Part shown: positions 3,589 through 27,917 of the stretch, one piece after another
Layout: each line of letters starts with the position of its first letter
How positions within the stretch are numbered: position 1 is the stretch's first letter
NCBI GenBank assembly: GCA_046350815.1
Contig: JAXLZO010000001.1
Span: 510,001-542,000 of the forward strand
DNA length: 32,000 bases
Direction: 5' to 3'
Source: Candidatus Saccharimonadota bacterium
Lineage (GTDB): Bacteria; Patescibacteriota; Gracilibacteria; BD1-5; UBA2023
Position numbers and translations under genes: made by a program
Notes under the pieces: generated by a model
What the model was told of the DNA's origin: nothing
Database searches by the model: none
The model's input: only the letters and a program-made list of their open reading frames with translations

Positions 3589-4998
3589 ATGCATCTTCAT
3601 ATTATCGGCATCGGTGGCATCGGCGTTTCTGCTCTTGCTCGCTTCTATCGTCGCTCGCTTGGTTGGCACGTGACTGGGAGTGATGCGAGTGATTTTTCCT
3701 TTCGTGAGCGTCTTGAGTCTGAATGAATAGATGTTTCCATCGGGCATTCAGCGGAAGTAATCACATCTGATACAGATCTGGTGATTTACTCTGAGGCAAT
3801 TATTACGAAGCCGGATCTGAGCTATGCTGAGAATCTTGAGGCAATACCAGAGCTCAAGCGAGCGAAGGAACTTGGAATCCGATCTCTCTCATATCCACAG
3901 GCTCTCTCAGAAATATTCGATGAGCGACAGGGGATTGCTGTGACAGGATCGCATGGGAAATCCACAACCACCGCTATGATTGGTGTCATGCTACAAAATA
4001 CTCCAAAAGCATCGAGTGTGATCGTCGGTACGCAAGTTCCACAGTTTGGTCAGTCCAATTTTTGGAATGCTGAAAGTTCATCCTATTTCACGATCGAAGC
4101 GTGTGAGTACAAGCGATCCTTTCTCGCATATCATCCATACATAACGGTTATCACAAATATTGATCTTGACCATCTTGATTATTACAAAAATCTTGATGAT
4201 TATTTCTCGGCATTTGATTCGATCATTCGTCAAACTCGAGGGTATGTGGTGATGAGATGGGATGATGAGCGAAGTAAAGAGCTCTACCATCGTATCTATG
4301 GATGAATAAATACAGCATGACTTCCGATCCCAGTGATGGTTGGTGAAGGGAAAATAGTTACGATTGTGAATGGTGAAATGAAGTTTGAAGATCTACCATC
4401 ATCGTGGAATCTCCAAGTGCCAGGTGATCATCTCGAACATGATGCGGAGCTTGCCTATGCGGTTGGTCGGATTCTTGGGCTTGATAGTATGATACTTATC
4501 TCAGGTCTCGAATCATATCAGGGTTCATGGAGACGTTCTGAGGTGGTGGGGGAGACAAAAAATCGAAACATACTAATGTCTGACTATGGGCATCATCCTG
4601 AAGAGATCAAACCAACCTTAAAAGCGATCAAACAAAAATATTCAGCTCGCAAGCTCTTTGTGGTATTTCAACCTCATCAATATTCACGTACGAGAGAATT
4701 ACTTTCAGAATTTGCAACATCGTTTGACGATGCGGATGAACTCATGATCCCGAATATTTATTTTTCACGTGATAAAGCGGAAGATGTGGAATATATGACG
4801 ATGGATCGACTCATAACTTTACTCCAGTCTCGTTACCCATGAGTTCAAAATGGTCAAGGACTGGAGGAGACAGCACGATATATCGAGTACTATGATCATT
4901 CTTTCCCAAATTCCTCCGTCATCCTCTTGCTGGGTGCAGGTGATGTAGATAGTTTGCGTGAAGATATTCCGGTGAAAATACTGACTATCGAGTGATAA
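3589..4998 (+). CDS. murC: UDP-N-acetylmuramate--L-alanine ligase
   Basis: ATG 3589. Starts MHLHIIGIGGIGVSALARFY (N-terminal Rossmann) and has the GSHGKSTT P-loop, DLDHLDYY and DYGHHPEEI. Track ORFs 3781..4305 and 4333..4842 plus flanks are all in frame 1, joined by 5 TGA (3724, 4303, 4318, 4840, 4993). Ends TGA-TAA at 4993-4998. Confidence 0.92.
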
Positions 4999-5115: not shown

Positions 5116-7500
5116 ATGAGATTCTCACGAAAAATCTTTCGTCGATCATTCTTTGATCGTTTGATGAATACATCCCGACTCAAGAAACATACACCACTTC
5201 GAGTCAAGCTTCTCACAACATTCGCAATTATAAGCCTCCTCATCAGTGGTCTGACATTTGCTCTCGGATGAGCAAGTGCTGCTATTACATGGCCTTCTGC
5301 TCCTGCCGGAGAGGCTACTGGAGGAGCTATTATGAGTTATTTTAAAAATGCTTTTTGAGATGCAACCACTCAGACAGAAAAGGTGTGTACTAATAGCTGA
5401 GTTGTTCGATGATTTAAGACTGATGGAAATCCTATATGTGCAAGTCTTTCTGAACTCTCTGGTGGGGCATCTACGTCTACTACGCCGCCCACTACCACTA
5501 CTACGCTACCACCTACTACAACAACCACCACAACCACTACGACATCAACCCCAACCCCAACTATTACTTCATTTGGTGCAAGTTCAACATCGATTGCATC
5601 GGGTAGTCCTACTACTCTTTCGTGGAATGTTGCGAATGCCAACCCGAACGGCTGTACTCTCTATGCAGGTAGTACAGCACTCACACCTAACTATGATCCA
5701 GTCGGAAGTAGAACCGTGAGTCCAACATCCAATACTTCCTACAAGATCACCTGTACAGGATTTGGTGTATCAAGTGTCACATCGAGCGATGTAAACATTA
5801 CCGTCAATCAGTTGCCAACTCTTGATTTCAAAGTGAATGCCGGTACTTCCGTCAATACTTCTGCTGGTGATTCTGCCTCCGTATCCTACAACGGATCAGC
5901 AACACTTTCTTGGAATGCCACGAATGCTACATCGTGCACACCGACGAACTTTACACTCCCGAGTAACTATCTGACAACCAACAAATCTCTCACTCTCAAT
6001 AATCTCACCACATCCCAAACAACATATTCCCTCAAATGTGATGGTGCTGGAGGATCCATAACGAAAAGTGTTACGGTGAATGTGGCGAATCCAACCTCTC
6101 CGAATGTAACATTAACCGCGTCATCAACATCTGTATACAACGGAACCGGTGTTACTCTCTCTTGGAGTGTATCGAATGCTACATCATGTGCGGCAAGTAA
6201 CGGATGGACTGGAGATAAATCAACAAACGGTGGAGCCGAACCCGTAACTCCAGCCAACAGCACAACAACAACCTATACTCTCACATGTTACGGACAGTGA
6301 AACACTTCTCGGAGTGTGAGTGCGAGTGTGGAGGCAACGGCACCACCAGTATGTTTTACATATACAACAAATAACAACGAAGTAACCATTACTGGTTATA
6401 AGTGGAATACAACAAGAGGATGCTTAAGTAATACTACACCAACCGTAGAACTTGATATACCATCATCGATTGATGGAAAGACGGTGAAGTTTATTGGAAA
6501 TAATGCTTTCGTGCTCAACAACCTCACCTCAGTGACGATTCCGAACAGTGTGACGAGTATTGGAAATGATGCTTTCTATAGAAACCAACTCACCTCAGTC
6601 ACGATACCAAATAGTGTGACGAGTATTGGAAATGTTGCTTTCTCTTGGAACATGCTCACAGGTTCTCTTGTGATTCCGAATAGTGTGACGAGTATTGGAA
6701 ATGATGCTTTCAAGTACAACAAACTCACATCAGTGACGATTCCGAACAGTGTGACGAGTATTGGAAATGATGCTTTCTCGACCAACGAACTCACAGGTTC
6801 TCTTGTGATTCCGGACAGTGTGACGAGTATTGCGGGTGGTGCTTTCAGGTACAACAATCTCACATCCGTGACGATTCCAAACAGTGTGACGAGTATTGGA
6901 AATAATGCTTTCGAGGACAACGAACTCACCTCAGTGACCATTCCGGACAGTGTGACGAGTATTGGGTATGATGCTTTCCGGAGCAACAATCTCACATCCG
7001 TGACGATTCCAAATAGTGTGACGAGTATTGGGTATGGTGCTTTCCGGAGCAACAATCTCACATCCGTGACGATTCCAAACAGTGTGACGAGTATTGGAAA
7101 TAATGCTTTCGAGGACAACGAACTCACCTCAGTGACCATTCCGGACAGTGTGACGAGTATTGGGTCTAGTGCTTTCAAGTACAACAAACTCACATCAGTG
7201 ACGATTCCGGACAGTGTGACGCGTATTGAAGATCTGACTTTCTATAACAACCAACTTACTTCTGTGACCATTCCAAACAGTGTGACGTTTATTGGATGGG
7301 CTGCTTTCAAGTACAACAAACTCACATCAGTGACGCTTCTGGGTAGTAGGGTAAATATTTGGGATGAGACTTTCTGAGATCAAACCAATTCCGCCTGAAA
7401 CGGTACCGTCTATGGTTCGGCTTATATGCAGAGTTTTTATATTAATAATAACTCTAACCAATTCGACAGATCCAAACTAACAAACTACGTAGTCCAATAA
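5116..7500 (+). CDS. secreted/anchored surface protein: signal anchor, Thr/Pro linker, 3 Ig-like repeats, ~13 BspA-type leucine-rich repeats
   Basis: Frame 1 is open from ATG 5116 (in-frame TAA at 5086 upstream) to TAA 7498-7500, with 7 in-frame TGA.
- N-terminal basic region plus TM segment ([19 protein letters not shown]).
- [27 protein letters not shown] linker.
- Three repeats with the signature LSW-x-NA(T)xC...Y-L/I-x-C-x-G.
- Then 22-23-aa units [22 protein letters not shown], typical of BspA/TpLRR-type LRRs.
It unites track ORFs 5716..6300 and 6316..7377. Confidence 0.85.
5473..5565 (+). repeat. Thr/Pro-rich low-complexity coding tract (ACN/CCN runs)
   Basis: Direct reading gives act acg ccg ccc act acc act act acg cta cca cct act aca aca acc acc aca acc act acg aca tca acc cca acc cca act. 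This is the linker region of the 5116..7500 CDS. Confidence 0.8.
6451..7345 (+). repeat. in-frame tandem LRR-coding repeats (66-69 nt period), including a perfect 115-nt duplication
   Basis: The unit ...ctcac(c/a)tc(a/c)gtgac(g/c)attcc(g/a)(a/g)acagtgtgacgagtattgg... recurs about 13 times. Positions 6853-6967 and 7051-7165 are identical over 115 nt (offset 198 nt = three 22-aa units). Confidence 0.9.
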
Positions 7501-7536
7501 CCCCATACTCCTTATTCCTCAATAACTATCACTCTT

Positions 7537-8145
7537 ATGCCTATCTCTTCCAATCTCAAAAAACTTACTAAACTTACTCTCACTCCTCTTCTCCTCTCTC
7601 TTTCATTCTCCCTCTCCTCTCTTCTGTTCTCACTCCTCCTTACCTCATGTTCCCTCCCGGGAGGAGGGAACAACGTATCGCAAGATACGTCACTCTCACC
7701 AAAACCTCTTATTCCTATTATCTCTTGATCAACGGTTATTCTCGACTATAGATTCTATTCTTCTGGTGAAGTGGTAGAAGAAGGATCATGAGCTACTCTC
7801 CATGTAGGAAAATGAGAAAAATTTCCCATGTTCGATACCGAGCTTCTTGGTATGAAAGCATGAGATAAGAAATCAGTGCTACTGCATGCATCAGTTGCCT
7901 ACGGAACCAAAGATCAAGAACAAATCGTTCGTCGATCTCAGATCACCCGATCAGATACTCCTGGCATGGAATGACTCTTCCATCCAAAAAGAATAGCAAC
8001 GGGATCCACGACCGAATGGAACAATCAAACTATCACCATTAAACAAATCCTTGACGATGAATTCGTTGTCATAACCTACCCAAGACAACACCCACTCGCA
8101 GGAAAAGATCTGACTATGGAAGTGGAAGTAAAGGATGTGAAGTAG
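7537..8145 (+). CDS. FKBP-type peptidyl-prolyl cis-trans isomerase, lipoprotein
   Basis: Signal peptide with lipobox LLLTSC. Under code 25 the frame continues past TGA 7726 to TAG 8143-8145 (5 more TGA). FKBP/SlyD-like motifs: LHVGKGEKFPMFDTELLGMKAGDKKSV, AYG, HPLAGKDLTMEVEVKDV. Confidence 0.8.
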
Positions 8146-8161
8146 AAGATGGTCAGAATAC

Positions 8162-8328
8162 AAGCTCCCCCTAGCCCCCTCAATGAGGGGGAACGAAGAG
8201 ATGTGCATATAAACGACGACCATAACCACTTTCATTAAGAGTGGTTTGTTTGTATCGTATCTTTCCGTCACCAGGTCGCAACAGATGGGTTCATTTCCCC
8301 CTTGTTGAGGGGGATTAAGGGGGAGTTT
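8162..8328. ncRNA. candidate structured RNA, unclassified (or composite 3' UTR/terminator element)
   Basis: An 11-bp closing helix (8162-8172 aagctccccct with 8318-8328 agggggagttt, one G-U) encloses three local hairpins:
- 8175-8191 ccccctc/aat/gaggggg
- 8224-8246 aaccact/.../agtggtt
- 8297-8313 ccccct/tgttg/aggggg
A cgacc/ggtcg helix (8217-8221 with 8274-8278) is also possible. G/C runs are unusual for this AT-rich sequence. It lies between convergent genes. Strand and class are undetermined. Confidence 0.35.
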
Positions 8329-8373
8329 CTTCAATCACAAAAAAATCCATGAAGCGTGATCTTTAATTGAACA

Positions 8374-8408
8374 AAGGAAGATCTTGAATGAGAATCAGGA
8401 TCTTTCTT
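8374..8408. terminator. bidirectional hairpin between convergent genes
   Basis: aagatcttga (8378-8387) pairs with tcaggatctt (8395-8404), one G-U, 7-nt loop. Extendable by ggaaa/tcttt flanks. T-rich on the plus side (tctttctt). Confidence 0.5.
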
Positions 8409-8432
8409 AACGGACTGTGGGCTTGTTTGAAT

Positions 8433-8972
8433 TTATTTTGGAAATTCATTTTTTCTTTGCTCCCTCATAGAGTGAGTTACCCGCAAAATAATTTTATCGC
8501 ACAGGGCTTGTGTATTTGAAGTAATTGGCATATCATCATTACACCATTCAATAAATGCTATTACAAGTCTATTTTGTTTCATAATTCCAATGTCACTGTT
8601 GTAGTCAAGAATATCAAGAATGATTGCTTGTTTGTCAACGGTAAAAGATCATGTGGTTAGCTCTATAGTCTTCTCTTGTATTTTGAGCCAGAGCTCTTTA
8701 GCTCAATCCTCACCTGCGTTACTCGGAAGAATATCCTGAAGATCGATAAGACTATCTTCAAGTTGTGGGGTGATGATTCAGGTGATAGTATGGAGTAATA
8801 CCTCGCGAACTATTTCTTCAAAGACATGGGTTTTGGTTTTTTGCTCTAGAATACTTCCTCAAAATGTGGGATATATATCATTTCATATATATCGAATGAG
8901 AGATGAATGAGATTGGAGGGACGATTCTACATTTTCTTCAATCGTATGTGCAATTGCTCAATGCATGGTCAT
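8433..8972 (-). CDS. hypothetical protein (~179 aa under code 25)
   Basis: Frame walked codon by codon from TAA 8433-8435 up to ATG 8970-8972 (alternative ATGs at 8966 and 9044). 7 in-frame TGA and no TAA/TAG. Not present in the standard-code track. No motif recognised. Confidence 0.5.
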
Positions 8973-9075
8973 ATATATAGGTGAATATCGATTAAGAATT
9001 CATATTACGGGTAAAAAAGAATATGTACAGCTCTTTTTTCCCATTTTTCAATATACTCTTGAGATAATTTTTTCT

Positions 9076-9729
9076 ATGAGAACAATCTTCATTGGTGATG
9101 TTCACGGCTGTCTTTTGGAGCTAAAAGATTTGATTGAAAAACTCTCGATAACTCCACAAGATCGGGTGATACTTCTGTGAGACCTTATCAATAAGTGACC
9201 TTATTCAGCTGAGACCGTACAATACGTCCATGAGAGTGGATTTGAATGTATTCGCGGAAATCATGATGAAGCATATAAGCAGTTTTTTAAACATTCGCAT
9301 TTGAGGCACTATTTTGGTCCGCTCAAATACGAAACTTATAAAGAGACGATGAGTCCAGAGGCACACCAGTGGTATATTCGTACTCCTATCTATATCGAGT
9401 CTGATGAATGGATTGCGGTCCATGCTGGACTTGAGCCGGGCAATGATCCTGCTGATACTGCAAAGAAAATTCTTATGAATATTCGTACATGGGATGAACT
9501 TGGAATAGACCTCGATGATCTTGATAATCCACCTTGGCACAGTCTCTATCGTGAATCGAAGAAGGTGATATACGGACATTGGGCACAACAATGACTTCAT
9601 GTTACTCTCAATACTGTTGGAATCGATACAGGATGCGCTTATGGATGAGAATTGACGGCATATATTTTGGAAACATGAGAAATGATCAGTGTAAAAGCAC
9701 GGGATGTGTACACACGAATCAAAAAATAA
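9076..9729 (+). CDS. metallophosphoesterase, ApaH/PrpE-like (bis(5'-nucleosyl)-tetraphosphatase or Ser/Thr phosphatase family)
   Basis: Begins MRTIFIGDVHGCLLELKDLIEKL (motif I GDxHG). Continues VILL-G-DLINK-G-PYS (motif II GDxxxxGP, both Gly encoded by TGA), GNHDE (motif III) and VHAG..GHW. Joins track ORFs 8965..9180 and 9301..9594. TAA at 9727-9729. Confidence 0.8.
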
Positions 9730-9803
9730 TCTTGTAATTTTCGTAAATTTTTCCATAATCACGCTCCAAGGTTGTTTTTCATCAAATCTGAGGAGGAAAA
9801 AAT

Positions 9804-10169
9804 ATGAATACACGCCTTCTGAATCATCATATGAGCAGTGATCGTCATTTTGGTCATCAAGTATTTGCATTCCGAAAAGTGCTTCAGGATCATCACGTTC
9901 CATATCGCAAAAGCAATGTTCGCATTCTCTACGGTGCGGTATATCTTGATATAGGTCGAGGAGCTATTCGCTACTTTACAAGGGAAAATGCTCTGAAATT
10001 TCTACTTCAAGATGGCAAGCGTTGTTTGAGAGTTGCAAAACGACTCTTGAGTCGTTATTTTCGCCCAGTGCGAATCTTCGGACTGCAACTCTATGAAGCA
10101 ATCAAGTGAGAAATGGACGATAATCAAAAAATCCTCGATTTTCCGAGGATTTTGATTTGACAAAACTAA
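9804..10169 (+). CDS. hypothetical basic protein (101 aa to the first TGA; 121 aa to TAA under code 25)
   Basis: Strong SD gaggagg 7 nt upstream of ATG 9804. Possible promoter ttgtaa-17-ataatc at about 9731-9759. No internal TGA. The first TGA (10107) sits 18 nt before a canonical terminator hairpin; the next TAA (10167) lies beyond it. See finding. Confidence 0.35.
10126..10156 (+). terminator. intrinsic terminator
   Basis: aaaatcctcg (10128-10137), 6-nt loop, cgaggatttt (10144-10153). A perfect 10-bp stem with A-tract and T-tract arms. Confidence 0.65.
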
Positions 10170-10185
10170 AGAATAAGAAATAATA
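10157..10185 (+). promoter_or_regulatory. sigma70-like promoter for the 10268 gene
   Basis: TTGACA 10157-10162, 17-nt spacer, ATAATA 10180-10185. About 80 nt of leader containing a gactgt/gcagtc hairpin precedes the ATG. Confidence 0.45.
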
Positions 10186-10267
10186 CCGCCTGTCGCTCAA
10201 ATCAAGACGACAAGGAGACTGTGAGAAATCGCAGTCAAAATGAAAAAATGGTTACAAGAGGTAGCAT

Positions 10268-10510
10268 ATGACAAATTGTCATGGTGGTGTGGAATCTGGC
10301 AAGATCAAACTTCGCTATATTGAACGTTCGGGTGGAGTTATTCATGCTCCAGGGGAATCGCTCCGTAAATTTGCGGAGGCACATTGTCAAGAAAATCATG
10401 GCGGTCGTGATCGCGGATTTGTCCCCGTTGCTCGTATGGGTGGTAAAATGGCCTACTGGAAATCTGGTGCCTTGCATATTGATCAGACAGCACATCTGGT
10501 TTCCTTCTAA
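10268..10510 (+). CDS. hypothetical small protein (80 aa), Gly/His/Cys-containing
   Basis: ATG 10268 with an in-frame TAG just upstream (10262) and agagg SD-like sequence. Has its own promoter and its own terminator. 12 Gly codons, none TGA. Uses CGT/CGC/GGT/GGC codons and is visibly more GC-rich than its neighbours. Two overlapping alternative-frame ORFs are judged spurious. Confidence 0.5.
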   Translation: MTNCHGGVESGKIKLRYIERSGGVIHAPGESLRKFAEAHCQENHGGRDRGFVPVARMGGKMAYWKSGALHIDQTAHLVSF

Positions 10511-10530
10511 ATTTTCACATCACTCTATGA

Positions 10531-10560
10531 CCCGCTCTCAATGAGTGGGTTTTTCTTTCT
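10531..10560 (+). terminator. intrinsic terminator
   Basis: acccgctc / tcaat / gagtgggt 8-bp stem (one G-U) followed by ttttctttctc. Confidence 0.65.
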
Positions 10561-10648
10561 CTATTTCTCTAAAATAAATTGATTCTTTTTTGAAAAACAA
10601 AGGAAAATGCGTATATTCGATATTACCTTTGTTTTTTATTTCTCCACA

Positions 10649-12001
10649 ATGCTTCAAACAGTTCGTGGAATGCAGGATATCTTCGGTGAATACCAGAGAT
10701 ATTTCACATTTCTCAAGAAAGTAGCCCGTCACGAGTTTCGTAAAAATGGCTTTACTCGTATCTCGACACCCATTATTGAATTTGAGGAACTCATCACTCG
10801 ATCAGCTGGGAATTCTTCCGATATTGTCTCAAAGGAGCTCTATAGTTTTGATGATCGCAAAGAGCGACGCCTTGCGCTTAAGCCAGAGTCAACTGCCGGT
10901 GTTATGCGATCATACTTGACGAATATGCTCGATGAGTCTCAGCCAGTGTACCTCTACTATATTGAGCCGCATTTTCGCTATGATCGTCCACAAAAAGGTC
11001 GCTATCGTCAATTCCATCAGATTGGTGCTGAAATCATCGGTGAACAAGATCCGGTGCTCGATGCGAAGATGATGCATATTGGTTGTCGAATGCTTGATTC
11101 CATAGGACTTAAAGGCGAATATACACTCAAGATTAACTCTCTCGGCAATGAGAAAGAACGTGAAAAATACCTCCTTGATCTACGAGATTTCTTCGAGAAT
11201 AAGCGTCATATTCTCGATGAGACAGATCTTGCTCGTCTCGAGACAAATCCTCTCAGACTTCTCGATAGTAAGAATCCAGAAGTTCGTGGACTCCTCGAAT
11301 ATGCACCAAAAATGGAGAGCTACCTCAAGGGTGAATCCAAGGAATTCTATGCAAAAGTAAAGATGTATTTGGAAATTCTCGGTGTTCCATACGTTGAGGA
11401 TCATACACTCGTTCGAGGTCTTGATTACTATTCTCATACTGTATGGGAATGGGTCGATGGATCAGGCCGCACACAAGATGCATTCGGTGGTGGCGGACGA
11501 TATGATGGACTCTCAAAATCACTCGGACACAAGACTGCTGTTCCAGCAGTAGGATTTGGCATGGGATGTGAGCGCCTCATAGAGGCAATCATGGATCGTG
11601 GTGTGAAGCTTCGAAACAAAGATCGAACCCACCTCTATATCATCCAACTTGGTGAGGATGCAACAAAACTCGCACTTCCACTCAATATTGCAGCTCAAGA
11701 AGCATGACTTAATTCTCTCATTTCGCTTGGCACTCCATCCATCAAGACACAGATGAAGAAAGCAAATCGTCTGGGTGCAACTTACGTAGCTATTATCGGT
11801 ATAATGGAAGCAAGAAATGGCATCTGCCAGCTCAAGAATATGGAGCTTGGGACACAACGAGAGGTGAAGCTTGATGAGCTTGTCTCACTTCTCATCTCCG
11901 AGGTTGATAAGAAAGAGTTGGATTTCTATTCTCCAATGAAAGATTTTGTTATTGAAGAAGTGATTCATTCAGAAATTACAACATCCATAAATGAAAAATA
12001 G
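10649..12001 (+). CDS. hisS: histidine--tRNA ligase
   Basis: Start chosen at MLQTVRGMQDIF (canonical HisRS N-terminus). Class II motifs: LKPESTAGVMRSY, FHQIGAEIIG, GGGRYDGL. TGA at 11705 joins track ORFs 10607..11707 and 11753..12001 (anticodon-binding domain). TAG stop at 11999-12001. Confidence 0.93.
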
Positions 12002-12018
12002 ATAGTCATGCAAATGAA

Positions 12019-12058
12019 GAAAATACAAAACCCACCATTAGGTGGGTTTTGTATTTTC
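12019..12058. terminator. bidirectional terminator between hisS and the pilin-like LRR gene
   Basis: gaaaatacaaaacccacc / atta / ggtgggttttgtattttc. Perfect long stem flanked by A/T tracts on both sides. Confidence 0.75.
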
Positions 12059-12065
12059 TAGCATT

Positions 12066-14423
12066 CTAAGGAAGATCAACGTAGTTTGGAAGTTTCACTT
12101 TATCAAACTGTGTATCTGGGTTATTGATATAGGTATTTTTTACATATCAGGATGCTGGACCATAGACGGTACCATTTCAAGGGGAATTTGTTTGAACTCC
12201 AAATGCATCTAGTCAAATGTTTGTCACACTATTTGGAATCGTCACGGATGTAAGATTATTTTTGAAAAATGCTGCTCGACCAATATTTGTTACACTATTT
12301 GGAATCATCACTGATGTAAGCTGATTTGTTGAGAATGCACCAGTTCAAATATTTGTTACACTATTTGGGATATTGATCGAAGTGAGTTGATTCATGACAA
12401 ATGCTCAATTACCGAGACTTGTGACACTATTTGGAATGATAATAGAAGTAATATTATTATTATAAAATGCATTTTCTCCACCAATACTCGTTACGCTATT
12501 TGGAATCACAATATTATCACGCTGAGCACCACCATAACCAATAATAGTACTTGTATCTTGTGATCCATCTGGATTACGAGCGTAAATGAATGCATCACTA
12601 TTTGGAAGATTATTTCTATTAAATGCTCACATGCCAATATTTACAACACTATTTGATATTACCGCAGAGGTGATACTATTTGCGAAAAATGCAAGCTCTC
12701 AAATATTTGTAATGCCATTTGGAATATTAACGCATTTCAATCATTTAAGCGCAAAAGCCGCACTTCCAATATTTACAACATTTACACCGCCAATAGTTGG
12801 TGGAATAACTACTTGTTTTGGCCCACTACTCGAATATCATGTTATAGTCCCGCTATTACTATTGAAGGTAAAGTATGATTCATCAGTGAGAGTACTGCCA
12901 TTTTGGCAATTTCCTATCATATTAAAGCTTATTCCCAAATCATGCTGTGACCCAACATAAAAATCAGTAGATACTGCAGATCCGGTACAATTATAGGGAG
13001 TAATATCACCAAGAGATGATGTACTCGTACAATTAAGATTTGCATAAGGAGTCTCGAATGTAATACTTGCTGGCATATTCGTAGTACCAGCAAGAATAGT
13101 TTGCCATGCTGAAAAAGTAGAATTTGCAAACATACTATCAATCACATATCCATCAACGGTATCATCTACGAGTGATCCAGGAGTAACAGTTGTAATAGTA
13201 ACGCCAAATGTTGCATAGAGAGATATAGTTAGTGGTCCTATATATCCATAGTAGGTATTCCCCATAATACTATACTCTCCCATGGTAAGTATATGACTTA
13301 CCGGTCATCCTCCTCCACCTCCAGAATCACCACCCCCAGAACCTGATCCACTTCCCGTACCACTATTCATCCCCAAGAGTGCCTTCTCATCAAAGCTTCC
13401 ATCCTTCAGAGAAAGAAGAGATCAAGTAGAGATATCCATGGATACATATTCATCAGCTCACTGTGATCCTACCATGATATCAAGCGTACTTGCATCACTC
13501 AAAGAGATATCTCTACTTCCTGTACCTGTCACTCCATTCTGAAGAGGTTGCTTACTTCCCTTGGAGAGAAAGATTCAGAGTCTATCTCCTGCAGAGTAGG
13601 GATATCTGGAAGAGAGATCAATGTTGCTGCTGTCGAGAGCGTAAGCTCTTGGGAGAGCTTCACGAAGTGAAGCAGAAAGCATACCTCAAAAGTCTGAGAA
13701 GGTTTCAGGAAGAGACTGCGAAGCAGTCTCTTGTATTCCTTTCAATTGTCCTCCAAACTCATTCACTCCAACTTCTTGATTCCCCCTGTTCAGATTATCA
13801 TCTCCTCTTCCACTTCATCCACCATCCAATCATCCTTCATTCATTCCAATCTTCTCATTTTCATGAAACTTTCTTCCAGCAATCTCAATACTCCTCTCAA
13901 ACCTTGGATTCTCAAGGTATGCCATGAACTGAGCGCTATCGTAGTGTTGATTGACTCGATAGGTGTAAGGAGTTCCATCAAGAGGGTCATAGATCTTATC
14001 TGATCCATACCCAAGAGGATTCACAATACTCGTACTCATGAATCCTTGGTATCCAATGAATGTTCCACTCACACTAAGAGAGACACTATCTGCTATAGGT
14101 GTAGGAAGCTTTCGAAGCTGTGCACTGGTAATTCTCGCACTCTCTGACAATGTCTTAATATCACTAATTCTCTTTCCATCTCTTGCTACTGATGACTGAT
14201 GACTCATCACTACAAACCCTATCACGGATAGTATAGAGAGTATGGTGATGACTACTATGAGTTCGGTGAGGGTGAAGGCGGAACAAGAAGAAAAAACATT
14301 TATTGGTTTTCTCTTCTTAAAAGAAGAGAAAGAGAATTTGTTTGTAAATATTGATTTATTGGATGAGGACGATTTGAATTGGTACATAGTATAGTGTGGA
14401 GAAATGATTATGCTTCTCGTCAT
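12066..14423 (-). CDS. type IV pilin-like (prepilin N-terminus) protein with Gly/Ser linker and C-terminal BspA-type leucine-rich repeats
   Basis: I walked every codon from TAG 12066-12068 to 14450: 16 in-frame TGA and no TAA/TAG. This unites track ORFs 13830..14450 and 12837..13283.
- N-terminus ...[28 protein letters not shown] matches the class III signal / N-methylation motif (F+1, E+5, hydrophobic helix).
- Mid-region has [19 protein letters not shown].
- C-terminus has about 8 units of [20 protein letters not shown], several with the IG Gly encoded by TGA.
Start is uncertain: ATG 14423 or 14387, or TTG 14450. Confidence 0.8.
12183..12830 (-). repeat. LRR-coding repeats, inverted paralogs of those at 6451..7345
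   Basis: gtcacactatttggaat recurs at about 12223, 12290, 12355, 12421 and 12490. Segment 12223-12251 is the exact reverse complement of 6994-7022 (29 nt). Confidence 0.85.
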
Positions 14424-19812: not shown

Positions 19813-19888
19813 GCGGGTGTAGCTCAATGGCTAGAGTCCCTGCCTTCCAAGCAGGCTGTTGTGGGTTCGACTCCCATCGCCCGCTCCA
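19813..19888 (+). tRNA. tRNA-Gly (anticodon UCC), CCA encoded
   Basis: Cloverleaf folded by hand. Acceptor GCGGGTG/CGCCCGC, D arm GCTC..GAGT, anticodon stem CCTGC/GCAGG with loop cuUCCaa, T arm GTGGG-TTCGACT-CCCAT, then T-CCA. Confidence 0.85.
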
Positions 19889-19930
19889 TTTTTTTCTGGA
19901 GCATTTGCAATTCTCAAGATCGTATCGAAT

Positions 19931-20007
19931 GGGCGTATAGCTCAGTTGGTTAGAGCACTTCTCTGATAAGGAAGGGGTCCCTGGTTCGAGTCCAGGTACG
20001 CCCACCA
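19931..20007 (+). tRNA. tRNA-Ile (anticodon GAU), CCA encoded
   Basis: Acceptor GGGCGTA/TACGCCC, D arm GCTC-AGTTGGTTA-GAGC, anticodon loop cuGAUaa, T arm CCTGG-TTCGAGT-CCAGG. Confidence 0.88.
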
Positions 20008-20030
20008 TTCATTTCTGCATACGATATAGT

Positions 20031-20107
20031 CGGAGACTGGCGCAATTGGCTAGCGCACGTGCTTTGGGAGCACGGGGTTGCGAGTTCGAGTCTCGCGTCT
20101 CCGACCA
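20031..20107 (+). tRNA. tRNA-Pro (anticodon UGG), CCA encoded
   Basis: Acceptor CGGAGAC/GTCTCCG, D arm GCGC-AATTGGCTA-GCGC, anticodon stem CGTGC/GCACG with loop uuUGGga, T arm GCGAG-TTCGAGT-CTCGC. Confidence 0.88.
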
Positions 20108-20119
20108 TTTTATTGTTTT

Positions 20120-20194
20120 GGCGCTATCGTCTAGTGGTTAGGACAGCGGGTTTTCATCCCGTAAACCGGAGTTCGATTCTCCGTAGCGCTACCA
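20120..20194 (+). tRNA. tRNA-Glu (anticodon UUC), CCA encoded
   Basis: Acceptor GGCGCTA/TAGCGCT (G1-U72), GTCTAGTGGTTAGGAC D arm typical of tRNA-Glu, anticodon loop uuUUCau, T arm CGGAG-TTCGATT-CTCCG. Confidence 0.85.
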
Positions 20195-20209
20195 TCTTTG
20201 GTTCTATTT

Positions 20210-20284
20210 GGCGGGGTAGCTCAGTGGTAGAGCAGAGGCCTGAAAAGCCTTGTGTCGGTGGTCCGATTCCACTCCTCGCCACCA
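20210..20284 (+). tRNA. tRNA-Phe (anticodon GAA), CCA encoded
   Basis: Acceptor GGCGGGG/CCTCGCC, D arm GCTC-AGTGGTA-GAGC, anticodon stem GAGGC/GCCTT with loop cuGAAaa, T arm GGTGG-TCCGATT-CCACT. Confidence 0.85.
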
Positions 20285-20326: not shown

Positions 20327-20389
20327 ACATTGGTGATTTAGATGAATATCTATACAATTTGATTTATTCAATCGTATTTTCCGACTATT

Positions 20390-22873
20390 ATGCAAAAAGA
20401 GGCTCAATCTCGTATAAAAATCAATAAGCTCCTCGAGAAATCTGGATGGAGTTTTCTCGATAAAGAGAAGCAAAAAGCTAATATTCAAGTGGAAGCATGA
20501 GTTAAGCTCGATCATCTATGAGATGATTTTGAGCATGCTCCTCGAGGTGCAATTGATTATCTCCTCCTCGATAGTCGTGGTTTTCCTATTTGTGTACTCG
20601 AGGCAAAGAAAGAATCCATCCATCCACTTTCAGCAAAAGAACAAGCTCGAGACTATGCGATCTCGAAAAATGCTCGATTTATTATCCTCTCAAATGGTAA
20701 CTCACACTATCTCTGGGATAGAGAAAATGGGAATCCTGAACTCATCACAGAATATCCAACTCAGGCATCTCTCGAACATAGATCGACCTATAATCCAGAT
20801 GTTTCCTCGCTCGCTGATATCCAGATAAATGCTGAGTATCTTGCTCCAGCAAAATATCTCAGACCCTATCAAGTTTGAGCTATACAAGCCATCCAAGCTT
20901 GGGCAAAAGAATGAAAGACACGTTATCTTCTCGAGATGGCTACGGGAACAGGAAAGACAACCACCTCAGCTGCAATATGTAAATTGTTTCTTCAGACAGG
21001 AAATGCGAAAAGAATACTCTTTCTTGTGGATCGAATAGAACTTGAAGATCAGGCGAAAAAGGCTTTTGCAGAAGAAATATTCAAATGAGTATATTTTGTC
21101 GATACAATCAAGTCAGGTGAGTGGCAAAAATGCCAAATTGTTGTCTCTACTATCCAGACCCTTATGGCTGGTGATAGATATAAAGAGCTTTTTTCTCCGA
21201 CAGATTTTGAGCTCGTGATATCCGATGAGGCACATAGATCGATATGAGGCAATGCTCGTGCAGTATTCGAGTATTTTATCGGATACAAACTTGGACTCAC
21301 AGCCACACCAAAGGATTATCTCAAAGGAATCGATGAAAAAGCGGGGATGTCAGAAAATCCGAAAGCACTTGAAATCAGAAACCTCAGAGATACATATAAA
21401 ACCTTTGGTTGTGAAGCATGAGAGCCAACATTTCGCTATGATCTTTCGGCCGGAGTGCAAGATGGCTTTCTCATCAATCCGTATGTTATCGATGCTCGTA
21501 CTGATGTGACGACTGAGCTTCTCTCTCTAGAATGATTTACTCTTGAAGTCGAGAACGATGACGGTGAATCGAGTGAGGAATCATTTGGAATACGTGACTT
21601 TGAAAAAAGATTTTTCAATGAAAAAACAAATCAGATATTTGCTGAAACAATCATCCAAAATGGACTTCTTGATCCTCTCACAGGTGAATTCGGCAAGATG
21701 CTTGTATTTGCTGTAAGTCAGTCCCATGCAGCCAAGATTGTCAATCTCCTCAATGCCATTGCTATGAAAAAATGGCCAGGGAAGTATGATTCTGATTTTG
21801 CGATGCAGGTGACGAGTAGTGTTATGAGATCACAGGATTTCACCAAGGATTTCACCAATAATCGTCTCTCTGGACGTTCGCACTTTGCAGATAGTACTCA
21901 TCCAGATTATGAGACTGGGAAGACTCGAATATGTGTGACCGTAGGCATGATGACGACTGGATATGACTGTCCTGACCTCCTCGGGGTAGTGCTTCTTCGT
22001 CCAGTATTTTCACCAGCGGATTTCGTCCAGATGAAGGGGCGAGGTACTAGAAAACATGTATTTCTCTATCAGGAAACGGGAGAAAAGGTAGAAAAAGATA
22101 AATTTCTCCTCCTTGATTTCTTCGGGAATTGTGAGTACTTCGAGAAGGATTTTGACTACAATAAAAAGCTCGATCTTCCTGCAATCTCGCAGAAAAAAGA
22201 TGGTCCGATAGTCATCGTAGATCCTCCAATCAATCCTGATGATGTAGATGCGAGAGTAGACGATAAAGTCCGTTCAGAGACAATTATCCAAGTCTGAAAA
22301 GAGTGAATGCGTATTGATCAGGAACTCTATCGCAAACCAAAACACGAACAGTTCGAGTATGTGTTACAAAATAGTGAGACTATAAGAGAGATAAATGAAA
22401 CTTCTGGGATCGAGTGAGTCGAAGAATTTCTGAAGAGTGAAGTATTCAATAAGCCAAATGAGTACTGGAATCCTCAAAAACTCCGAGAATCCTATGAGAA
22501 AGTCTATAATACTGGTAGGCGTATCACTCTCCGAGAAATGATCTCTAAAGCATTTGGATTTCTCCGAGGATTCGAGTCTCGCGATGAACGACTTGACACA
22601 GAGTGGCAGAAGTTCCTGATTACTGAGCGACCGAATGTCGAAACTGGTGAACAACTTCGCAAGCTCAAGATCATATTCGAGACATATTTAGCTGATGAGA
22701 GGTTCCGTTCTATCATTGATTCAGGTAGTATTGCCGGACTCGATAGCTATAGCTCTCTCGTTAACATGAACGATATTAGGCTCGTCTGAGGTCGTCCTAC
22801 TGTTGATGCTGTACGCAATTATTCGAGTGAATATCTCACGAGTGCGATGAGAGAATTTAGTTTCTCAAAATAA
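20390..22873 (+). CDS. hsdR: Type I restriction enzyme R subunit (HsdR; PD-(D/E)xK nuclease + SF2 helicase + EcoEI-R-like C-terminal region)
   Basis: Frame 2 walked codon by codon from ATG 20390 to TAA 22871-22873: 12 in-frame TGA and no TAA/TAG.
- N-terminus MQKEAQSRIKINKLLEKSGW.
- Nuclease core D-YLLLD...VLEAKKE.
- Helicase motifs: I EMATGTGKT, II ISDEAHRS, III GLTATP, VI QMKGRGTR.
Only two pieces (21698..22297 and 22538..22789) appear in the standard-code track. Confidence 0.9.
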
Positions 22874-22885
22874 CAATAACTTTAT

Positions 22886-27115: not shown

Positions 27116-27254
27116 ATTTGCTATACAAAAGTATAAAATATATCTTCACAATATTTGCGTTTTTCAAATTTATATGCTACGCTTATGAACGAAGCCACAG
27201 TTTTGTGAGCATCATGATCGTATATTGTGTTTCTTTATATCTTCTCTTTGTGTT

Positions 27255-27917
27255 ATGAATACCAATACCAAGCGATTTATCGCTCTCTCTACCGTAGCAG
27301 CATTTGCTGCATTCGGTGCATCATCAGCATTTGCCTCTCAGGTCGGTACCGGTACGGTTACCGGATCCGGTGGTCTTACCACCGCGATCAACTGGAATGA
27401 TGTCATTCCAGGTTCTGCCTCTGGTACCATCAATGGTATCATTGTAAAAGCAAAAGTACGCCCTATCCTCAATATGGCTATCTCTGCAGATACTATTGAT
27501 CTTGGATACCTCAATCCAACTACCTACACATCAGGATCAGTCACTATGGAAGTAGGAACCAACGCATCAGCTGGTGCTTCTGTCACTGCTAAATCTCTCA
27601 ACGGAGGTATGCTCTCTGCCTCTGGTGATATCATCAACGATCTCACTGCTGATGGTATTGCCGAGAGCTACAAGTGGACGACCACTCTTTCTGGAGCATC
27701 CGACAGCGTTGCAGCTGGATTCACTCAGACTGCTAACCTCAGTAGTGAGATCAACAGTACCGTCACTGCCTACACTCTCTACACGACCAACAAACCATCT
27801 AAGACTTCTGTTGGTATCGATGACTTTACTTTTACTGCATCCGCAAAGGTTGCTGAAGATACTCCTGCAACCAGCTACAGTGACAAGGTTATCGTGACTG
27901 TTGCGGCAAATTTCTAA
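27255..27917 (+). CDS. secreted Ser/Thr/Ala/Gly-rich protein (220 aa), function unknown
   Basis: ATG 27255. Signal peptide MNTNTKRFIALSTVAAFAAFGASSAFA-SQ. Beta-rich, low-charge sequence ending ...YSDKVIVTVAANF. 20 Gly codons, none TGA. The overlapping ORFs 27567..27929(-) and 27574..27897(+) are off-frame shadows. Confidence 0.7.
   Translation: MNTNTKRFIALSTVAAFAAFGASSAFASQVGTGTVTGSGGLTTAINWNDVIPGSASGTINGIIVKAKVRPILNMAISADTIDLGYLNPTTYTSGSVTMEVGTNASAGASVTAKSLNGGMLSASGDIINDLTADGIAESYKWTTTLSGASDSVAAGFTQTANLSSEINSTVTAYTLYTTNKPSKTSVGIDDFTFTASAKVAEDTPATSYSDKVIVTVAANF

What the first reader, a model, noticed from the sequence alone, without database searches (positions are those of the whole stretch)
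5116..14423. Two ~790-aa BspA-type LRR surface proteins as inverted paralogs sharing a C-terminal module and identical DNA segments
**Seen in sequence:**
- Gene A (5116..7500, +) and gene B (12066..14423, -) both end with tandem IPNSVTxIGxxAF LRR units followed by the same tail. Gene A has [34 protein letters not shown] and gene B has [37 protein letters not shown].
- At DNA level, 6994-7022 equals the reverse complement of 12223-12251 (29/29 nt).
- ggtaccgtctatggt is shared between about 7402 and about 12156 (reverse complement).
- The N-terminal halves are unrelated: signal anchor plus Ig-like repeats versus pilin-like helix plus Gly/Ser linker.

**Inference:**
- The inverted LRR cassettes could support gene conversion or shuffling of repeat units.
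- They could also support inversion of the intervening ~4.5 kb, from 7500 to 12066 (FKBP gene to hisS).
- This is a plausible route to surface variation in an episymbiotic or predatory CPR cell.
- The conserved tail may be a sorting or anchoring signal.
Basis: partly seen in the sequence, partly recalled or inferred. Interest (0 to 1): 0.65.

Follow-up and report, generated by a model that had tools for sequence, protein, structure and literature searches.

The report
Two LRR adhesins, one a pilin
Two convergent genes in a bacterium that reads UGA as glycine encode surface adhesins with the same leucine-rich-repeat module, one of them grafted onto a type IV pilin. The shared "tail" looks like the structural end-cap of that module and not a sorting signal, and nothing supports a DNA-inversion switch between the two genes.

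Summary
Under genetic code 25 (all 23 internal "stops" are TGA), gene A (5116-7500, +) and gene B (12066-14423, -) are intact 794- and 785-aa proteins. Each has a BspA-type LRR_5 module and a homologous ~44-aa C-terminal tail, and the 29/29-nt and 15-nt identities exist. Gene B is a modular type IV pilin: class III signal, conserved head, linkers, LRR module. Gene A has a signal anchor, a Thr/Pro stalk, three Ig-like repeats and the LRR module.

A and B LRR units are 58% identical on average (maximum 70%), so there is no sign of recent A-B conversion. No recombinase is present, and the B-HisS junction is conserved in a relative. Inversion is unsupported, though it could not be tested on the A side.

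The tail recurs in at least six further genes at three kinds of locus, always directly after an LRR array. In anchored alignments it matches an element that ends LRR modules internally in multi-module proteins (z 3-6), which favours a solenoid cap. Real variation does exist: orthologues differ in LRR number (7 vs ~18) and in modules, and the LRR portion is 60-73% identical beside flanks mostly 88-99% identical. The pilin+BspA-LRR architecture is already catalogued, so this is ordinary to mildly interesting.

The parts
5116..7500 (+). Gene A: 794-aa surface protein (code 25, 7 in-frame TGA=Gly)
   Evidence: Intact ORF under code 25. Pfam LRR_5 6e-98.
5116..5280 (+). Gene A basic N-region plus hydrophobic signal anchor/peptide (aa 1-55, ...[24 protein letters not shown])
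   Evidence: Read directly from the translation.
5470..5562 (+). Gene A Thr/Pro-rich stalk (aa 119-149)
   Evidence: Translation. TRF 21-nt repeats at 5477-5556.
5563..6339 (+). Gene A: three Ig-like repeats (aa 150-408), each with a '(T/A)LSW..(N/S)NA..C' motif and a later 'Y.(I/L).C.G' motif
   Evidence: Translation. Database hits are to generic Ig-like or surface proteins, best 47% identity.
6352..6510 (+). Gene A N-terminal cap of the LRR module ([16 protein letters not shown]...[18 protein letters not shown])
   Evidence: Same element begins each LRR module in B, the family members and P0129.
6511..7374 (+). Gene A LRR array, about 13 units of 22-23 aa (66-nt period, 198-nt super-period)
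   Evidence: TRF: 6492-7339, period 66, 12.8 copies; period 198, 82% matches. Unit table.
6852..6967 (+). First copy of a 116-nt exact direct repeat inside gene A (second copy at 7050-7165, 198 nt = 3 units away, in frame)
   Evidence: This is the best substrate in the region for unit gain or loss.
7050..7165 (+). Second copy of the 116-nt exact direct repeat
6994..7022 (+). 29-nt stretch identical to the reverse complement of 12223-12251 (encodes TSVTIPNSV)
   Evidence: P about 0.001 under independent codon choice.
7375..7497 (+). Gene A C-terminal tail (aa 754-794, [41 protein letters not shown]); proposed C-terminal cap of the LRR solenoid
7537..8145 (+). FKBP-type lipoprotein (not part of the feature; lies in the intervening segment)
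   Evidence: Pfam FKBP_C 3e-7.
10541..12001 (+). Histidyl-tRNA synthetase, convergent with gene B (intervening segment)
   Evidence: Pfam tRNA-synt_His 3e-30. Same neighbour in L008-L010.
12018..12059 (.). Perfect 19-bp hairpin (4-nt loop) between the convergent stops of hisS and gene B; likely a bidirectional terminator
   Evidence: Inverted repeat I6. Not flagged by the simple terminator scan.
12066..14423 (-). Gene B: 785-aa modular type IV pilin with an LRR module (code 25, 16 in-frame TGA=Gly)
14205..14276 (-). Gene B class III signal junction and alpha-1 helix (CSA|[24 protein letters not shown]; F+1, E+5)
   Evidence: Pfam N_methyl 22.0 bits (cut-off 21.2). NCBIfam TIGR02532 23.1 bits (cut-off 16.3). 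AF2 helix pLDDT 75-94.
13833..14276 (-). Gene B pilin module (aa 50-197)
   Evidence: 44 database homologues, mostly 80-97% identical, several named prepilin-type N-terminal cleavage/methylation domain proteins.
12909..13832 (-). Gene B Gly-rich linkers and two middle domains of unknown fold (aa 198-505)
   Evidence: Translation. Shared with L008, L018 and L023.
12753..12908 (-). Gene B N-terminal cap of the LRR module (…[16 protein letters not shown]…[20 protein letters not shown])
12201..12752 (-). Gene B LRR array, about 7 units, one interrupted by an insertion
   Evidence: TRF 12216-12508, period 66. Unit table.
12223..12251 (-). 29-nt stretch identical to the reverse complement of 6994-7022
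12069..12200 (-). Gene B C-terminal tail (aa 742-785, [44 protein letters not shown]); proposed LRR C-cap

Best explanation
Genes A and B are two surface adhesins of a UGA=Gly (code 25) Patescibacteria/CPR bacterium. They share one complete BspA-type (LRR_5) beta-solenoid module, mounted on two different carriers.

The module has three parts:
- an N-terminal cap ('F/Y.F/Y...g.ITGY...vvIP..i.G..V..IG..AF');
- a variable number of 22-aa '[22 protein letters not shown]' units;
- a conserved ~44-aa C-terminal element, the 'tail'.

Gene B is a modular type IV pilin: a class III signal peptide, an alpha-1 helix, a very conserved pilin head, flexible Gly/Ser linkers, middle domains and the LRR module. 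It is presumably polymerised through its pilin module so that the LRR module is displayed on, probably at the tip of, a type IV pilus for attachment to a host or prey cell (inferred). Gene A displays the same kind of module on a signal anchor, a Thr/Pro stalk and three Ig-like domains.

The first ~32 residues of the tail are the structural C-terminal cap of the solenoid. They are not a sorting signal. This is supported by anchored alignment and remains to be shown by structure. The last ~12 residues (D-K-x-K-L-P-N-Y-V...) are a family-specific extension of unknown role.

The identical DNA stretches are leftovers of common descent of the repeat units at the most constrained peptide motif. They are not traces of ongoing A-B exchange. 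Variation in this family arises by gain and loss of repeat units and modules within a gene, and by replacement of the LRR portion between strains or paralogous pilin-LRR loci. It does not arise by inversion between A and B.
For: - Code 25 and intact genes. TGA in the window corresponds to GGN in orthologues at the Gly before NGTVYG.
- LRR_5 far above the Pfam threshold in both proteins; N_methyl (Pfam) and TIGR02532 (NCBIfam) above curated cut-offs in B. AF2 gives a confident long N-terminal helix.
- The pilin head is 80-97% identical in dozens of metagenome fragments and is named a prepilin domain protein by JGI.
- Tail family, all with the tail directly after the last 'AF' and ending the protein: winA, winB, L008 (HisS locus), L001/L016/L018/L025 (TrmA/LeuRS locus) and L023 (Mur-ligase locus).
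- The tail has no Pfam or NCBIfam match and no hydrophobic segment.
- Multi-module LRR proteins P0129, P0157 and P0202 carry 22 internal copies of an element 'h-T-I-Y-G-x2-G-S-x-A-x2-Y-A-x6-F' right after the last LRR of each module, followed by the next module or another domain.
- BLASTP alignments of all 7 tested family C-termini extend through the tail into these elements in one register. hhalign gives the same register with P 0.0036.
- Anchored global alignments score z = 3.0-6.3 above shuffled tails, with at most 6 of 1000 shuffles reaching the real score, for two independent groups of caps.
- No A-B homogenisation: unit identity A-A 76%, B-B 62%, A-B 58%. A's tail is 45-59% identical to all others, while B-type tails are 66-86% alike.
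- Intragenic turnover: a 116-nt exact direct repeat in A. LRR counts are 7 (winB) against about 18 (L008 orthologue), and 1.8 kb of extra FN3/Ig modules are present in L008.
- Sharp identity step at the gene boundary between orthologous loci, 64-72% inside against 93-99% in the flank.
- The pilin + BspA-LRR architecture (IPR012902-IPR026906) is already listed for 18+6 proteins in the modular-pilin survey (PMC8179133).
Against: - The cap assignment has no structural confirmation.
- No solved LRR_5 structure aligns to the tail.
- Position-free HMM tests, tails against the cap HMM and against the LRR-unit HMM, are not better than shuffles. The hhalign probability is only 9%.
- The caps were picked with a regular expression based on a motif I remembered, which introduces some circularity.
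- The last 12-14 residues of the tail have no counterpart in the internal caps and are the most conserved part, so they might have a separate function.
- For the pilin claim, residue -1 is Ala in the window and in L008 (it is Gly in L023 and L025). The leader is long (37-49 aa). The head fold was not resolved. No pilus machinery lies in the window.
Confidence: 0.68

Rival explanations
1. The inverted LRR cassettes of A and B recombine with each other, by gene conversion or by inversion of the 4.5-kb segment between them. This would swap repeat units and tails and generate surface variation.
For: - The genes are convergent with homologous 3' parts. A 29-nt exact inverted match exists and exceeds the independent-codon expectation.
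- Short-read assemblies of the same strain break exactly in the two LRR arrays, so orientation is not independently fixed.
- The LRR portions of the pilin genes do show recombination-like identity steps between strains.
Against: - The arms are only 71% (106 nt) to 89% (45 nt) alike.
- A-B unit identity is 58% on average and 70% at most, with no long shared tracts, whereas units inside A reach 100%.
- 29 nt is at the lower limit for RecA-type recombination (general knowledge of minimal efficient processing segments of about 23-27 bp in E. coli).
- No recombinase, invertase or reverse transcriptase in 32 kb.
- The B-tail-HisS orientation is conserved in L008-L010.
- A's tail is the most divergent of the family, the opposite of what exchange with B would give.
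Confidence: 0.06
2. The conserved tail, or at least its last ~14 residues ([13 protein letters not shown]), is a functional C-terminal signal. It could be a sorting, secretion or anchoring tag of a CPR-specific system, or a docking peptide that binds another pilus or cell-surface component.
For: - It lies at the extreme C-terminus in all 8 genes, ending 2-3 residues after NYV.
- K-L-x-N-Y-[VI] and F-D are invariant even in the divergent L023 and winA tails.
- This terminal stretch has no counterpart in the internal caps of other proteins.
Against: - No hydrophobic helix or basic tail, and no LPXTG, PEP-CTERM, GlyGly-CTERM or T9SS-type match.
- It is found only after LRR arrays. No other ORF in the window carries it.
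- It is present on proteins that already have two different N-terminal targeting and anchoring devices.
- It is absent from 185,579 GTDB species representatives in this form, so no broad system is attached to it.
Confidence: 0.15
3. The similarity is an assembly artefact: a chimeric or collapsed assembly of repeat-rich genes created the apparent shared segments.
For: Independent contigs do not span the LRR arrays. A 116-nt exact repeat in A could be collapsed or expanded.
Against: - Both ORFs are intact and in frame over 2.4 kb under code 25.
- Both tails and their junctions to the FKBP and HisS sides are reproduced at 100% identity in L019 (7306-12103).
- The same architecture is seen in at least 6 independent contigs from other samples.
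Confidence: 0.04

Closest known systems
Modular type IV pilins (Streptococcus sanguinis PilB with a vWA module and PilC with a lectin module; Raynaud et al. 2021, PMC8179133), including the catalogued InterPro architecture IPR012902 (N_methyl) - IPR026906 (BspA-type LRR)
   Same: Gene B has an N-terminal class III signal and pilin module, a linker, and a grafted ligand-binding module. That paper's Dataset S1 already lists 18 proteins with N_methyl + BspA-LRR and 6 with two LRR hits. It also notes CPR examples (Magasanikbacteria, Falkowbacteria).
   Different: - Gene B has two further middle domains and long Gly/Ser linkers between the pilin and the adhesion module.
- Residue -1 is Ala.
- It belongs to a multi-locus family with a nearly invariant head and a fast-changing distal part.
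- No experimental evidence of incorporation into pili.
BspA-family LRR adhesins (Tannerella forsythia BspA, Treponema LrrA/TpLRR, pneumococcal PcpA; Pfam PF13306; solved structures 4FS7, 4GT6, 4H09, 6MLX, 4CP6)
   Same: The same 22-23-aa repeat 'IP.sVt.Ig..AF' (324 and 125 bits; PDB hits to E 7e-38). Surface location and an adhesion role are expected.
   Different: - The carriers differ (pilin, or signal anchor with Ig-like stalk).
- The repeat lacks the Cys common in the 'AF..C..L' version.
- The C-terminal element has no detectable sequence match in the solved structures.
Multi-module LRR_5 giants (P0129, P0157, P0202 from the representative library) with the module-terminal element '...LTIYG..GS.AE.YA..N...F'
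   Same: Same module grammar: N-cap, LRR units, terminal element. The tail aligns to that element in register.
   Different: In those proteins the element is internal and is followed by further modules. Here it ends the protein and carries a 12-14-residue extension. Similarity is weak outside T[IV]YG / Y / F anchor positions.
LRR proteins proposed as adhesins of oral Saccharibacteria lacking pilins (Shaiber et al. 2020, PMC7739484)
   Same: A CPR lineage with expanded LRR surface proteins, suggested to mediate attachment and host specificity.
   Different: There LRR proteins were discussed as an alternative to pilus adhesins. Here the LRR module is fused to a pilin. The phylum-level lineage and the genetic code also differ.
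Recombination-based surface variation systems (Neisseria pilE/pilS, Treponema tprK, invertible shufflons)
   Same: Multiple paralogous copies of a pilus or surface gene, with a conserved frame and variable distal part, and sharp identity steps between strains.
   Different: No silent cassettes, no long conserved flanking repeats between A and B, no recombinase, and no evidence of within-population switching.

Membership tests
BspA-type LRR proteins (Pfam PF13306 LRR_5) | Match to the LRR_5 model above the gathering score | tested here: met
   A 323.9 bits and B 125.0 bits against a cut-off of 27.7.
BspA-type LRR proteins (Pfam PF13306 LRR_5) | Tandem 22-23-aa units with the 'IP.sV..Ig..AF' pattern | tested here: met
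   66-nt period with 12.8 copies in A and 4.4 or more in B. Unit lists. PDB LRR_5 structures hit at E 7e-38.
Type IV pilins / type IV filament subunits | Class III signal peptide: hydrophilic leader, small residue at -1, F/M at +1, E at +5, about 20 hydrophobic residues | tested here: met
   ...SSCSA|[24 protein letters not shown]. Pfam N_methyl 22.0 bits (cut-off 21.2). TIGR02532 23.1 bits (cut-off 16.3). Residue -1 is Ala here and Gly in L023 and L025.
Type IV pilins / type IV filament subunits | Pilin fold: long N-terminal alpha-helix packed on a beta-sheet head | tested here: inconclusive
   AF2 single sequence: helix at residues 7-36 with pLDDT 75-94, and the head below 50.
Type IV pilins / type IV filament subunits | Prepilin peptidase and assembly machinery (PilD, PilB ATPase, PilC platform) in the genome | not testable with these tools
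   None in the 32-kb window. The genome was not found in the GTDB scan.
Modular pilins (Raynaud et al. 2021) | [quoted passage not shown] | tested here: met
   N_methyl + LRR_5 in one ORF. The architecture IPR012902-IPR026906 is listed in that paper's Dataset S1.
Modular pilins (Raynaud et al. 2021) | Incorporation into pili and a direct role in adhesion | not testable with these tools
   Needs experiment.
C-terminal sorting signals (LPXTG/sortase, PEP-CTERM/exosortase, GlyGly-CTERM, T9SS CTD) | Recognisable motif followed by a hydrophobic helix and basic residues, or a CTD beta-sandwich; match to the curated models | tested here: not met
   No such NCBIfam or Pfam hit at E <= 0.1 for the whole proteins or E <= 10 for the tails. 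The tail is hydrophilic (sequence).
C-terminal sorting signals (LPXTG/sortase, PEP-CTERM/exosortase, GlyGly-CTERM, T9SS CTD) | The same tag on many otherwise unrelated proteins of one genome | tested here: inconclusive
   Only LRR proteins carry it in the window and in 8 related contigs. A complete proteome was not available.
Invertible DNA switches (shufflons, fim/hin-type) | Site-specific recombinase gene nearby and near-perfect inverted repeats | tested here: not met
   No recombinase in the window. Arms are 71-89% alike, with 29 nt as the longest exact match.
Gene-conversion variation systems (pilE/pilS-like) | Donor cassettes sharing long identical tracts with the expressed gene; mosaic alleles | tested here: inconclusive
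   Not met for the A-B pair. Mosaic-like identity steps are seen between orthologous pilin-LRR loci, and tails do not cluster by locus, but donors could not be identified.
LRR C-terminal capping element of LRR_5 modules | Element directly after the last 'AF' with the same spacing, and a T-[IV]-Y-G ... Y ... F pattern shared with elements that end modules internally in other proteins | tested here: met
   Anchored alignment z 3.0-6.3, at most 6 of 1000 shuffles reach the real score. BLAST extension in register. hhalign P 0.0036. Position-free tests were not significant.
LRR C-terminal capping element of LRR_5 modules | Packs on and shields the last repeat in the 3D structure | tested here: inconclusive
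   AF2 of P0001 gives tail pLDDT below 50.

The most novel reading that the evidence does not exclude
The pilin-LRR genes form a multi-locus family, with at least three kinds of locus: next to hisS, next to trmA/leuS and next to a Mur ligase. The nearly invariant pilin head and the conserved tail would frame a distal adhesin part that is repeatedly replaced by recombination among paralogues or strains. That would amount to a host-range or antigenic variation system for pilus-tip adhesins in UGA=Gly CPR bacteria. Gene A would be an older, independently anchored offshoot of the same module.
Probability: 0.2. Interest if true: 0.6.

Novelty: new member of a known kind. Interest (0 to 1): 0.3.

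Why it matters
CPR/Patescibacteria are thought to live attached to other cells, and type IV pili are their best candidate attachment organelles. A pilin that carries its own LRR adhesion module, has a conserved assembly end, and has a distal end that changes in repeat number and module content between close relatives is a plausible determinant of host specificity. It gives concrete targets for experiment: the tail, the LRR array and the head.

There is also a practical lesson. In code-25 lineages, standard (code 11) gene calling shreds exactly these genes. Their families are then nearly invisible in protein databases, and public MAGs (such as GCA_020632315.1) carry them as fragments.

The architecture itself is already catalogued and no new mechanism is demonstrated, so the significance is modest.

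Tried and rejected
- Tail-only profile against 5.8 billion proteins: one hit, the fragment P0001, because code-11 gene calls truncate these genes.
- GTDB genome scan with automatic patterns: nothing. With my pattern QFDxxKLxNYV: six chance hits.
- AF2 of the pilin head as a single sequence: only the helix is confident.
- AF2 of P0001 (2 LRRs + partial tail): the tail is unresolved.
- PDB sequence and profile searches: only the LRR columns match.
- Exhaustive HMMER job with a 'tail' profile: the LRR columns of P0001 stayed in the model and 191,927 LRR proteins swamped it. It was useful only because some hits exposed internal caps.
- Position-free tests of tails against the cap HMM and against the LRR-unit HMM: not better than shuffles. 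I therefore dropped the claim that the tail is recognisably 1.5 degenerate LRR units.
- Gene A orthologues: the best database hit is 47% identical on a 1.7-kb contig. The code-11 fragment of A is not on record. Synteny and orientation on the A side could not be examined.
- The JGI 835-aa product of L025 is not in the searchable collection.
- L023's Mur ligase is not the orthologue of the one beside gene A.
- My first impression that the 3' end of the gene sits in a 90% block was wrong. The flanking gene dominated that average (corrected).
- The Gracilibacterium 'hypervariation' paper concerns a PTD tripeptide repeat, which is not this family.

Full report
**Checking the observation**

Under the standard bacterial code the two proposed genes are broken into pieces. 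Every internal stop is TGA, 7 in gene A and 16 in gene B. Several of them sit exactly where the LRR consensus 'S-I-G-x-x-A-F' needs Gly, for example NI*ELAF, NI*TGAF and NI*LDAF. In related contigs the same Gly positions are encoded by GGN. The window therefore uses genetic code 25 (UGA = Gly), as in Gracilibacteria and Absconditabacteria.

With that code, gene A (5116-7500, +) is an intact 794-aa ORF and gene B (12066-14423, -) an intact 785-aa ORF. The DNA claims are exact. 6994-7022 equals the reverse complement of 12223-12251 (29/29), and GGTACCGTCTATGGT occurs at 7402 (+) and 12159 (-). BLASTP aligns only the C-terminal parts, at 48-51% identity (E 3e-53); the N-terminal halves do not align.

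A 29-nt exact match is more than chance. When the codons of both genes are resampled independently with the proteins kept fixed, it is reached in about 1 of 1000 trials. That result shows common descent of the repeat units at the DNA level and nothing more.

**What the two proteins are**

Both match Pfam LRR_5 (BspA-type LRR) far above threshold, at 324 and 125 bits against 27.7. Both also hit solved BspA-type LRR structures (4FS7, 4GT6, 4H09, TpLRR, PcpA).

Gene B carries a class III signal junction...CSA|[24 protein letters not shown], with F at +1 and E at +5. It passes the curated cut-offs of Pfam N_methyl (22.0 against 21.2) and NCBIfam TIGR02532 (23.1 against 16.3). AlphaFold gives a confident long N-terminal helix, but the head is unresolved from a single sequence. 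The 150-aa pilin module is 80-97% identical in dozens of metagenome fragments, some named 'prepilin-type N-terminal cleavage/methylation domain-containing protein'.

After the head come Gly-rich linkers, two middle domains without family matches, the N-cap of the LRR module, about 7 LRR units and the tail. Gene B is thus a modular type IV pilin in the sense of Raynaud et al. 2021 (PMC8179133). That survey already lists the architecture N_methyl + BspA-type LRR (IPR012902-IPR026906) for 18 proteins, plus 6 with two LRR hits.

Gene A has a basic N-region and a hydrophobic signal anchor, a Thr/Pro stalk, and three Ig-like repeats that each carry a '(T/A)LSW..(N/S)NA..C' motif. The same kind of LRR module follows, with about 13 units.

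**Is the tail conserved, and where?**

Protein databases are nearly blind here, because code-11 gene calling shreds these genes. A tail profile found one 73-aa fragment among 5.8 billion clusters. Going to DNA was productive. The fragment's contig, L001, encodes a gene B-like protein with the same tail. A metagenome pattern scan gave two more, L016 and L018. Contigs found through ClpP and the pilin head gave three more:
- L008-L010, the positional orthologue of B next to HisS;
- L023, from NCBI MAG GCA_020632315.1, labelled Candidatus Peribacteria although it is fragmented under code 11;
- L025.

A scan of 185,579 GTDB species genomes for QFDxxKLxNYV gave only chance hits, so this form of the tail is confined to a narrow lineage.

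In all eight genes the tail starts right after the 'AF' of the last LRR and ends the protein 2-3 residues after N-Y-[VI]. The genes lie at three kinds of locus: HisS, TrmA/LeuRS and a Mur ligase. Every carrier is nevertheless an LRR protein, and no other ORF in the window has the tail.

**Cap or sorting signal?**

The tail is hydrophilic. It matches no Pfam family even at E <= 10, and the whole-protein NCBIfam scan shows no sorting-signal model. It sits on proteins that already have two different N-terminal targeting devices.

My one exhaustive HMMER job was swamped by LRR giants, but it exposed something useful. Multi-module LRR proteins (P0129, P0157, P0202) end each LRR module with an element such as '...AFAGNQQNPAGLTIYGVAGSAAKTYANSNGHTFEEY'. 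There are 22 copies, each followed by the N-cap of the next module or by another domain. That element is therefore internal to the polypeptide.

The evidence linking the tail to this element is as follows:
- With LRR context, BLASTP alignments of all seven tested family C-termini run through the tail into these elements in one register: T[VI]YG with TIYG, TY with TYA, and F with F.
- hhalign finds the same register, with P 0.0036 but a calibrated probability of only 9%.
- Position-free HMM tests were not better than shuffles.
- An anchored test, using global alignment starting after the last 'AF', is clear. It gives z = 3.0-6.3, with at most 6 of 1000 shuffles reaching the real score, for two independent groups of caps.

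No solved structure aligns to the tail. The structure predictions I was allowed to run left it unresolved.

My reading is that the first ~32 residues are the C-terminal cap of the solenoid (about 60% confidence). The last 12-14 residues are a family-specific extension whose role is open.

**Gene conversion and inversion**

Repeat units are 76% identical on average within A, and two units are 100% identical. They are 62% identical within B, and only 58% (maximum 70%) between A and B. The inverted arms are 71% alike over 106 nt and 89% over 45 nt. The longest exact A/B match is 29 nt, whereas gene A contains a 116-nt exact direct repeat spaced by 198 nt, which is three units in frame.

A's tail is the most divergent of the family, at 45-59% identity to all the others. 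B-type tails are 66-86% alike. That is the opposite of what exchange with B would produce. There is no recombinase, invertase or reverse transcriptase in the 32 kb.

In the relative L008-L010, whose flanks are 79-95% identical, the order ClpP-TyrS-ProS-pilin gene-HisS and the orientation are the same as in the window. Contigs of the same strain (L011 and L019, both 100% identical) break inside the LRR arrays and say nothing about orientation. No gene A orthologue could be retrieved. A-B conversion is therefore contradicted by the data, and inversion is unsupported but not formally excluded.

**Where variation really is**

The positional orthologue of B in L008 is over 1,300 aa. It has the same head, but two FN3 and two further Ig-like modules and about 18 LRR units instead of 7. 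That is 2.2 kb where the window has 0.42 kb.

Along orthologous pairs the identity changes abruptly at the gene boundary:
- L025/L018: 93-99% in the TrmA-like flank against 64-72% in the LRR part and 81% over the tail.
- Window/L008: 83-96% in hisS against 60-73% in the LRR part and tail.

Tails do not cluster cleanly by locus. Window B is 77-81% identical to TrmA-locus genes and 72% to L008.

Such steps suggest replacement of the distal part by recombination between strains or paralogous pilin-LRR loci. I could not identify donors or show that contigs belong to one genome, so this remains a hypothesis (see the novel case).

**Comparison with what is known, and verdict**

The closest known things are four:
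- modular type IV pilins (PilB/PilC of S. sanguinis; the same architecture is already catalogued);
- BspA-family LRR adhesins;
- the module grammar of multi-module LRR_5 proteins;
- the LRR proteins proposed as adhesins in oral Saccharibacteria (PMC7739484).

The finding is a correct observation of two ordinary, though biologically sensible, adhesin genes. The specific mechanistic ideas (inversion, A-B conversion, sorting signal) are not supported. The general idea that LRR cassettes vary is supported, but through intragenic unit turnover and allele replacement.

I rate it a new member of a known kind, with interest 0.3.

Noticed in passing
window 1-32000 (e.g. 5116-7500, 12066-14423, 3589-4998, 7537-8145): The whole window uses genetic code 25 (TGA = Gly). 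Table-11 ORF calling fragments most genes, and TGA in the window corresponds to GGN in orthologues. No tRNA-Gly(UCA) lies in the window.
   Followed up: yes
L023 (NCBI GCA_020632315.1, contig JACKFT010000001.1, 39156-59671): This public MAG, labelled 'Candidatus Peribacteria bacterium', is annotated with code 11 although TGA is clearly sense. A 1179-aa PBP and the pilin-LRR gene are split into many small CDS. Both the label and the annotation look unreliable.
   Followed up: partly
L023 10540-10979; L025 9700-10830: In two related contigs the pilin-LRR gene changes frame between the head and the distal part. These may be frameshifted pseudogenes, programmed slippage in Gly/Ser-coding repeats, or assembly errors.
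   Followed up: no
window 6852-6967 and 7050-7165: A 116-nt exact direct repeat inside gene A, spaced by 198 nt (3 LRR units, in frame). It predicts copy-number polymorphism and makes the assembled copy number uncertain.
   Followed up: partly
window 12018-12059: A perfect 19-bp hairpin with a 4-nt loop in the 64-nt gap between the convergent stops of hisS and gene B. It is probably a bidirectional terminator.
   Followed up: no
window 20342-25351: A type I restriction-modification system. HsdR spans 20342-22873. An 821-aa fusion of the N6 methylase with two specificity (Methylase_S) domains in one polypeptide spans 22886-25351.
   Followed up: partly
window 19813-20284: A cluster of five tRNA genes on the + strand: Gly-TCC, Ile-GAT, Pro-TGG, Glu-TTC and Phe-GAA.
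   Followed up: no
window 9501-10010 (vs L020): A contig from another sample is 99.6% identical over 9280-12130. All 12 mismatches cluster in 9501-10010 (the metallophosphatase 3' part and the spacer), and none falls in hisS.
   Followed up: no
window 27174-27917: A 247-aa ORF with a clear signal peptide (…FIALSTVAAFAAFGASSAFA) and a Ser/Thr/Gly-rich body, with no Pfam match. It may be another surface protein.
   Followed up: no
window 5470-5562: Gene A has a Thr/Pro-rich stalk encoded by imperfect 21-nt repeats. It is reminiscent of, but different from, the PTD-repeat surface protein described for a Gracilibacterium (PMC6851277).
   Followed up: no
L008 4622-8788 vs L025 9765-13169: The HisS-locus gene of L008 shares its full architecture (head, FN3 x2, Ig-like x2, LRR) with the TrmA-locus gene of L025: 77% identity over 2.6 kb and 92% in the head. 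It shares less with its positional orthologue in the window, which may hint at exchange between paralogous loci.
   Followed up: partly
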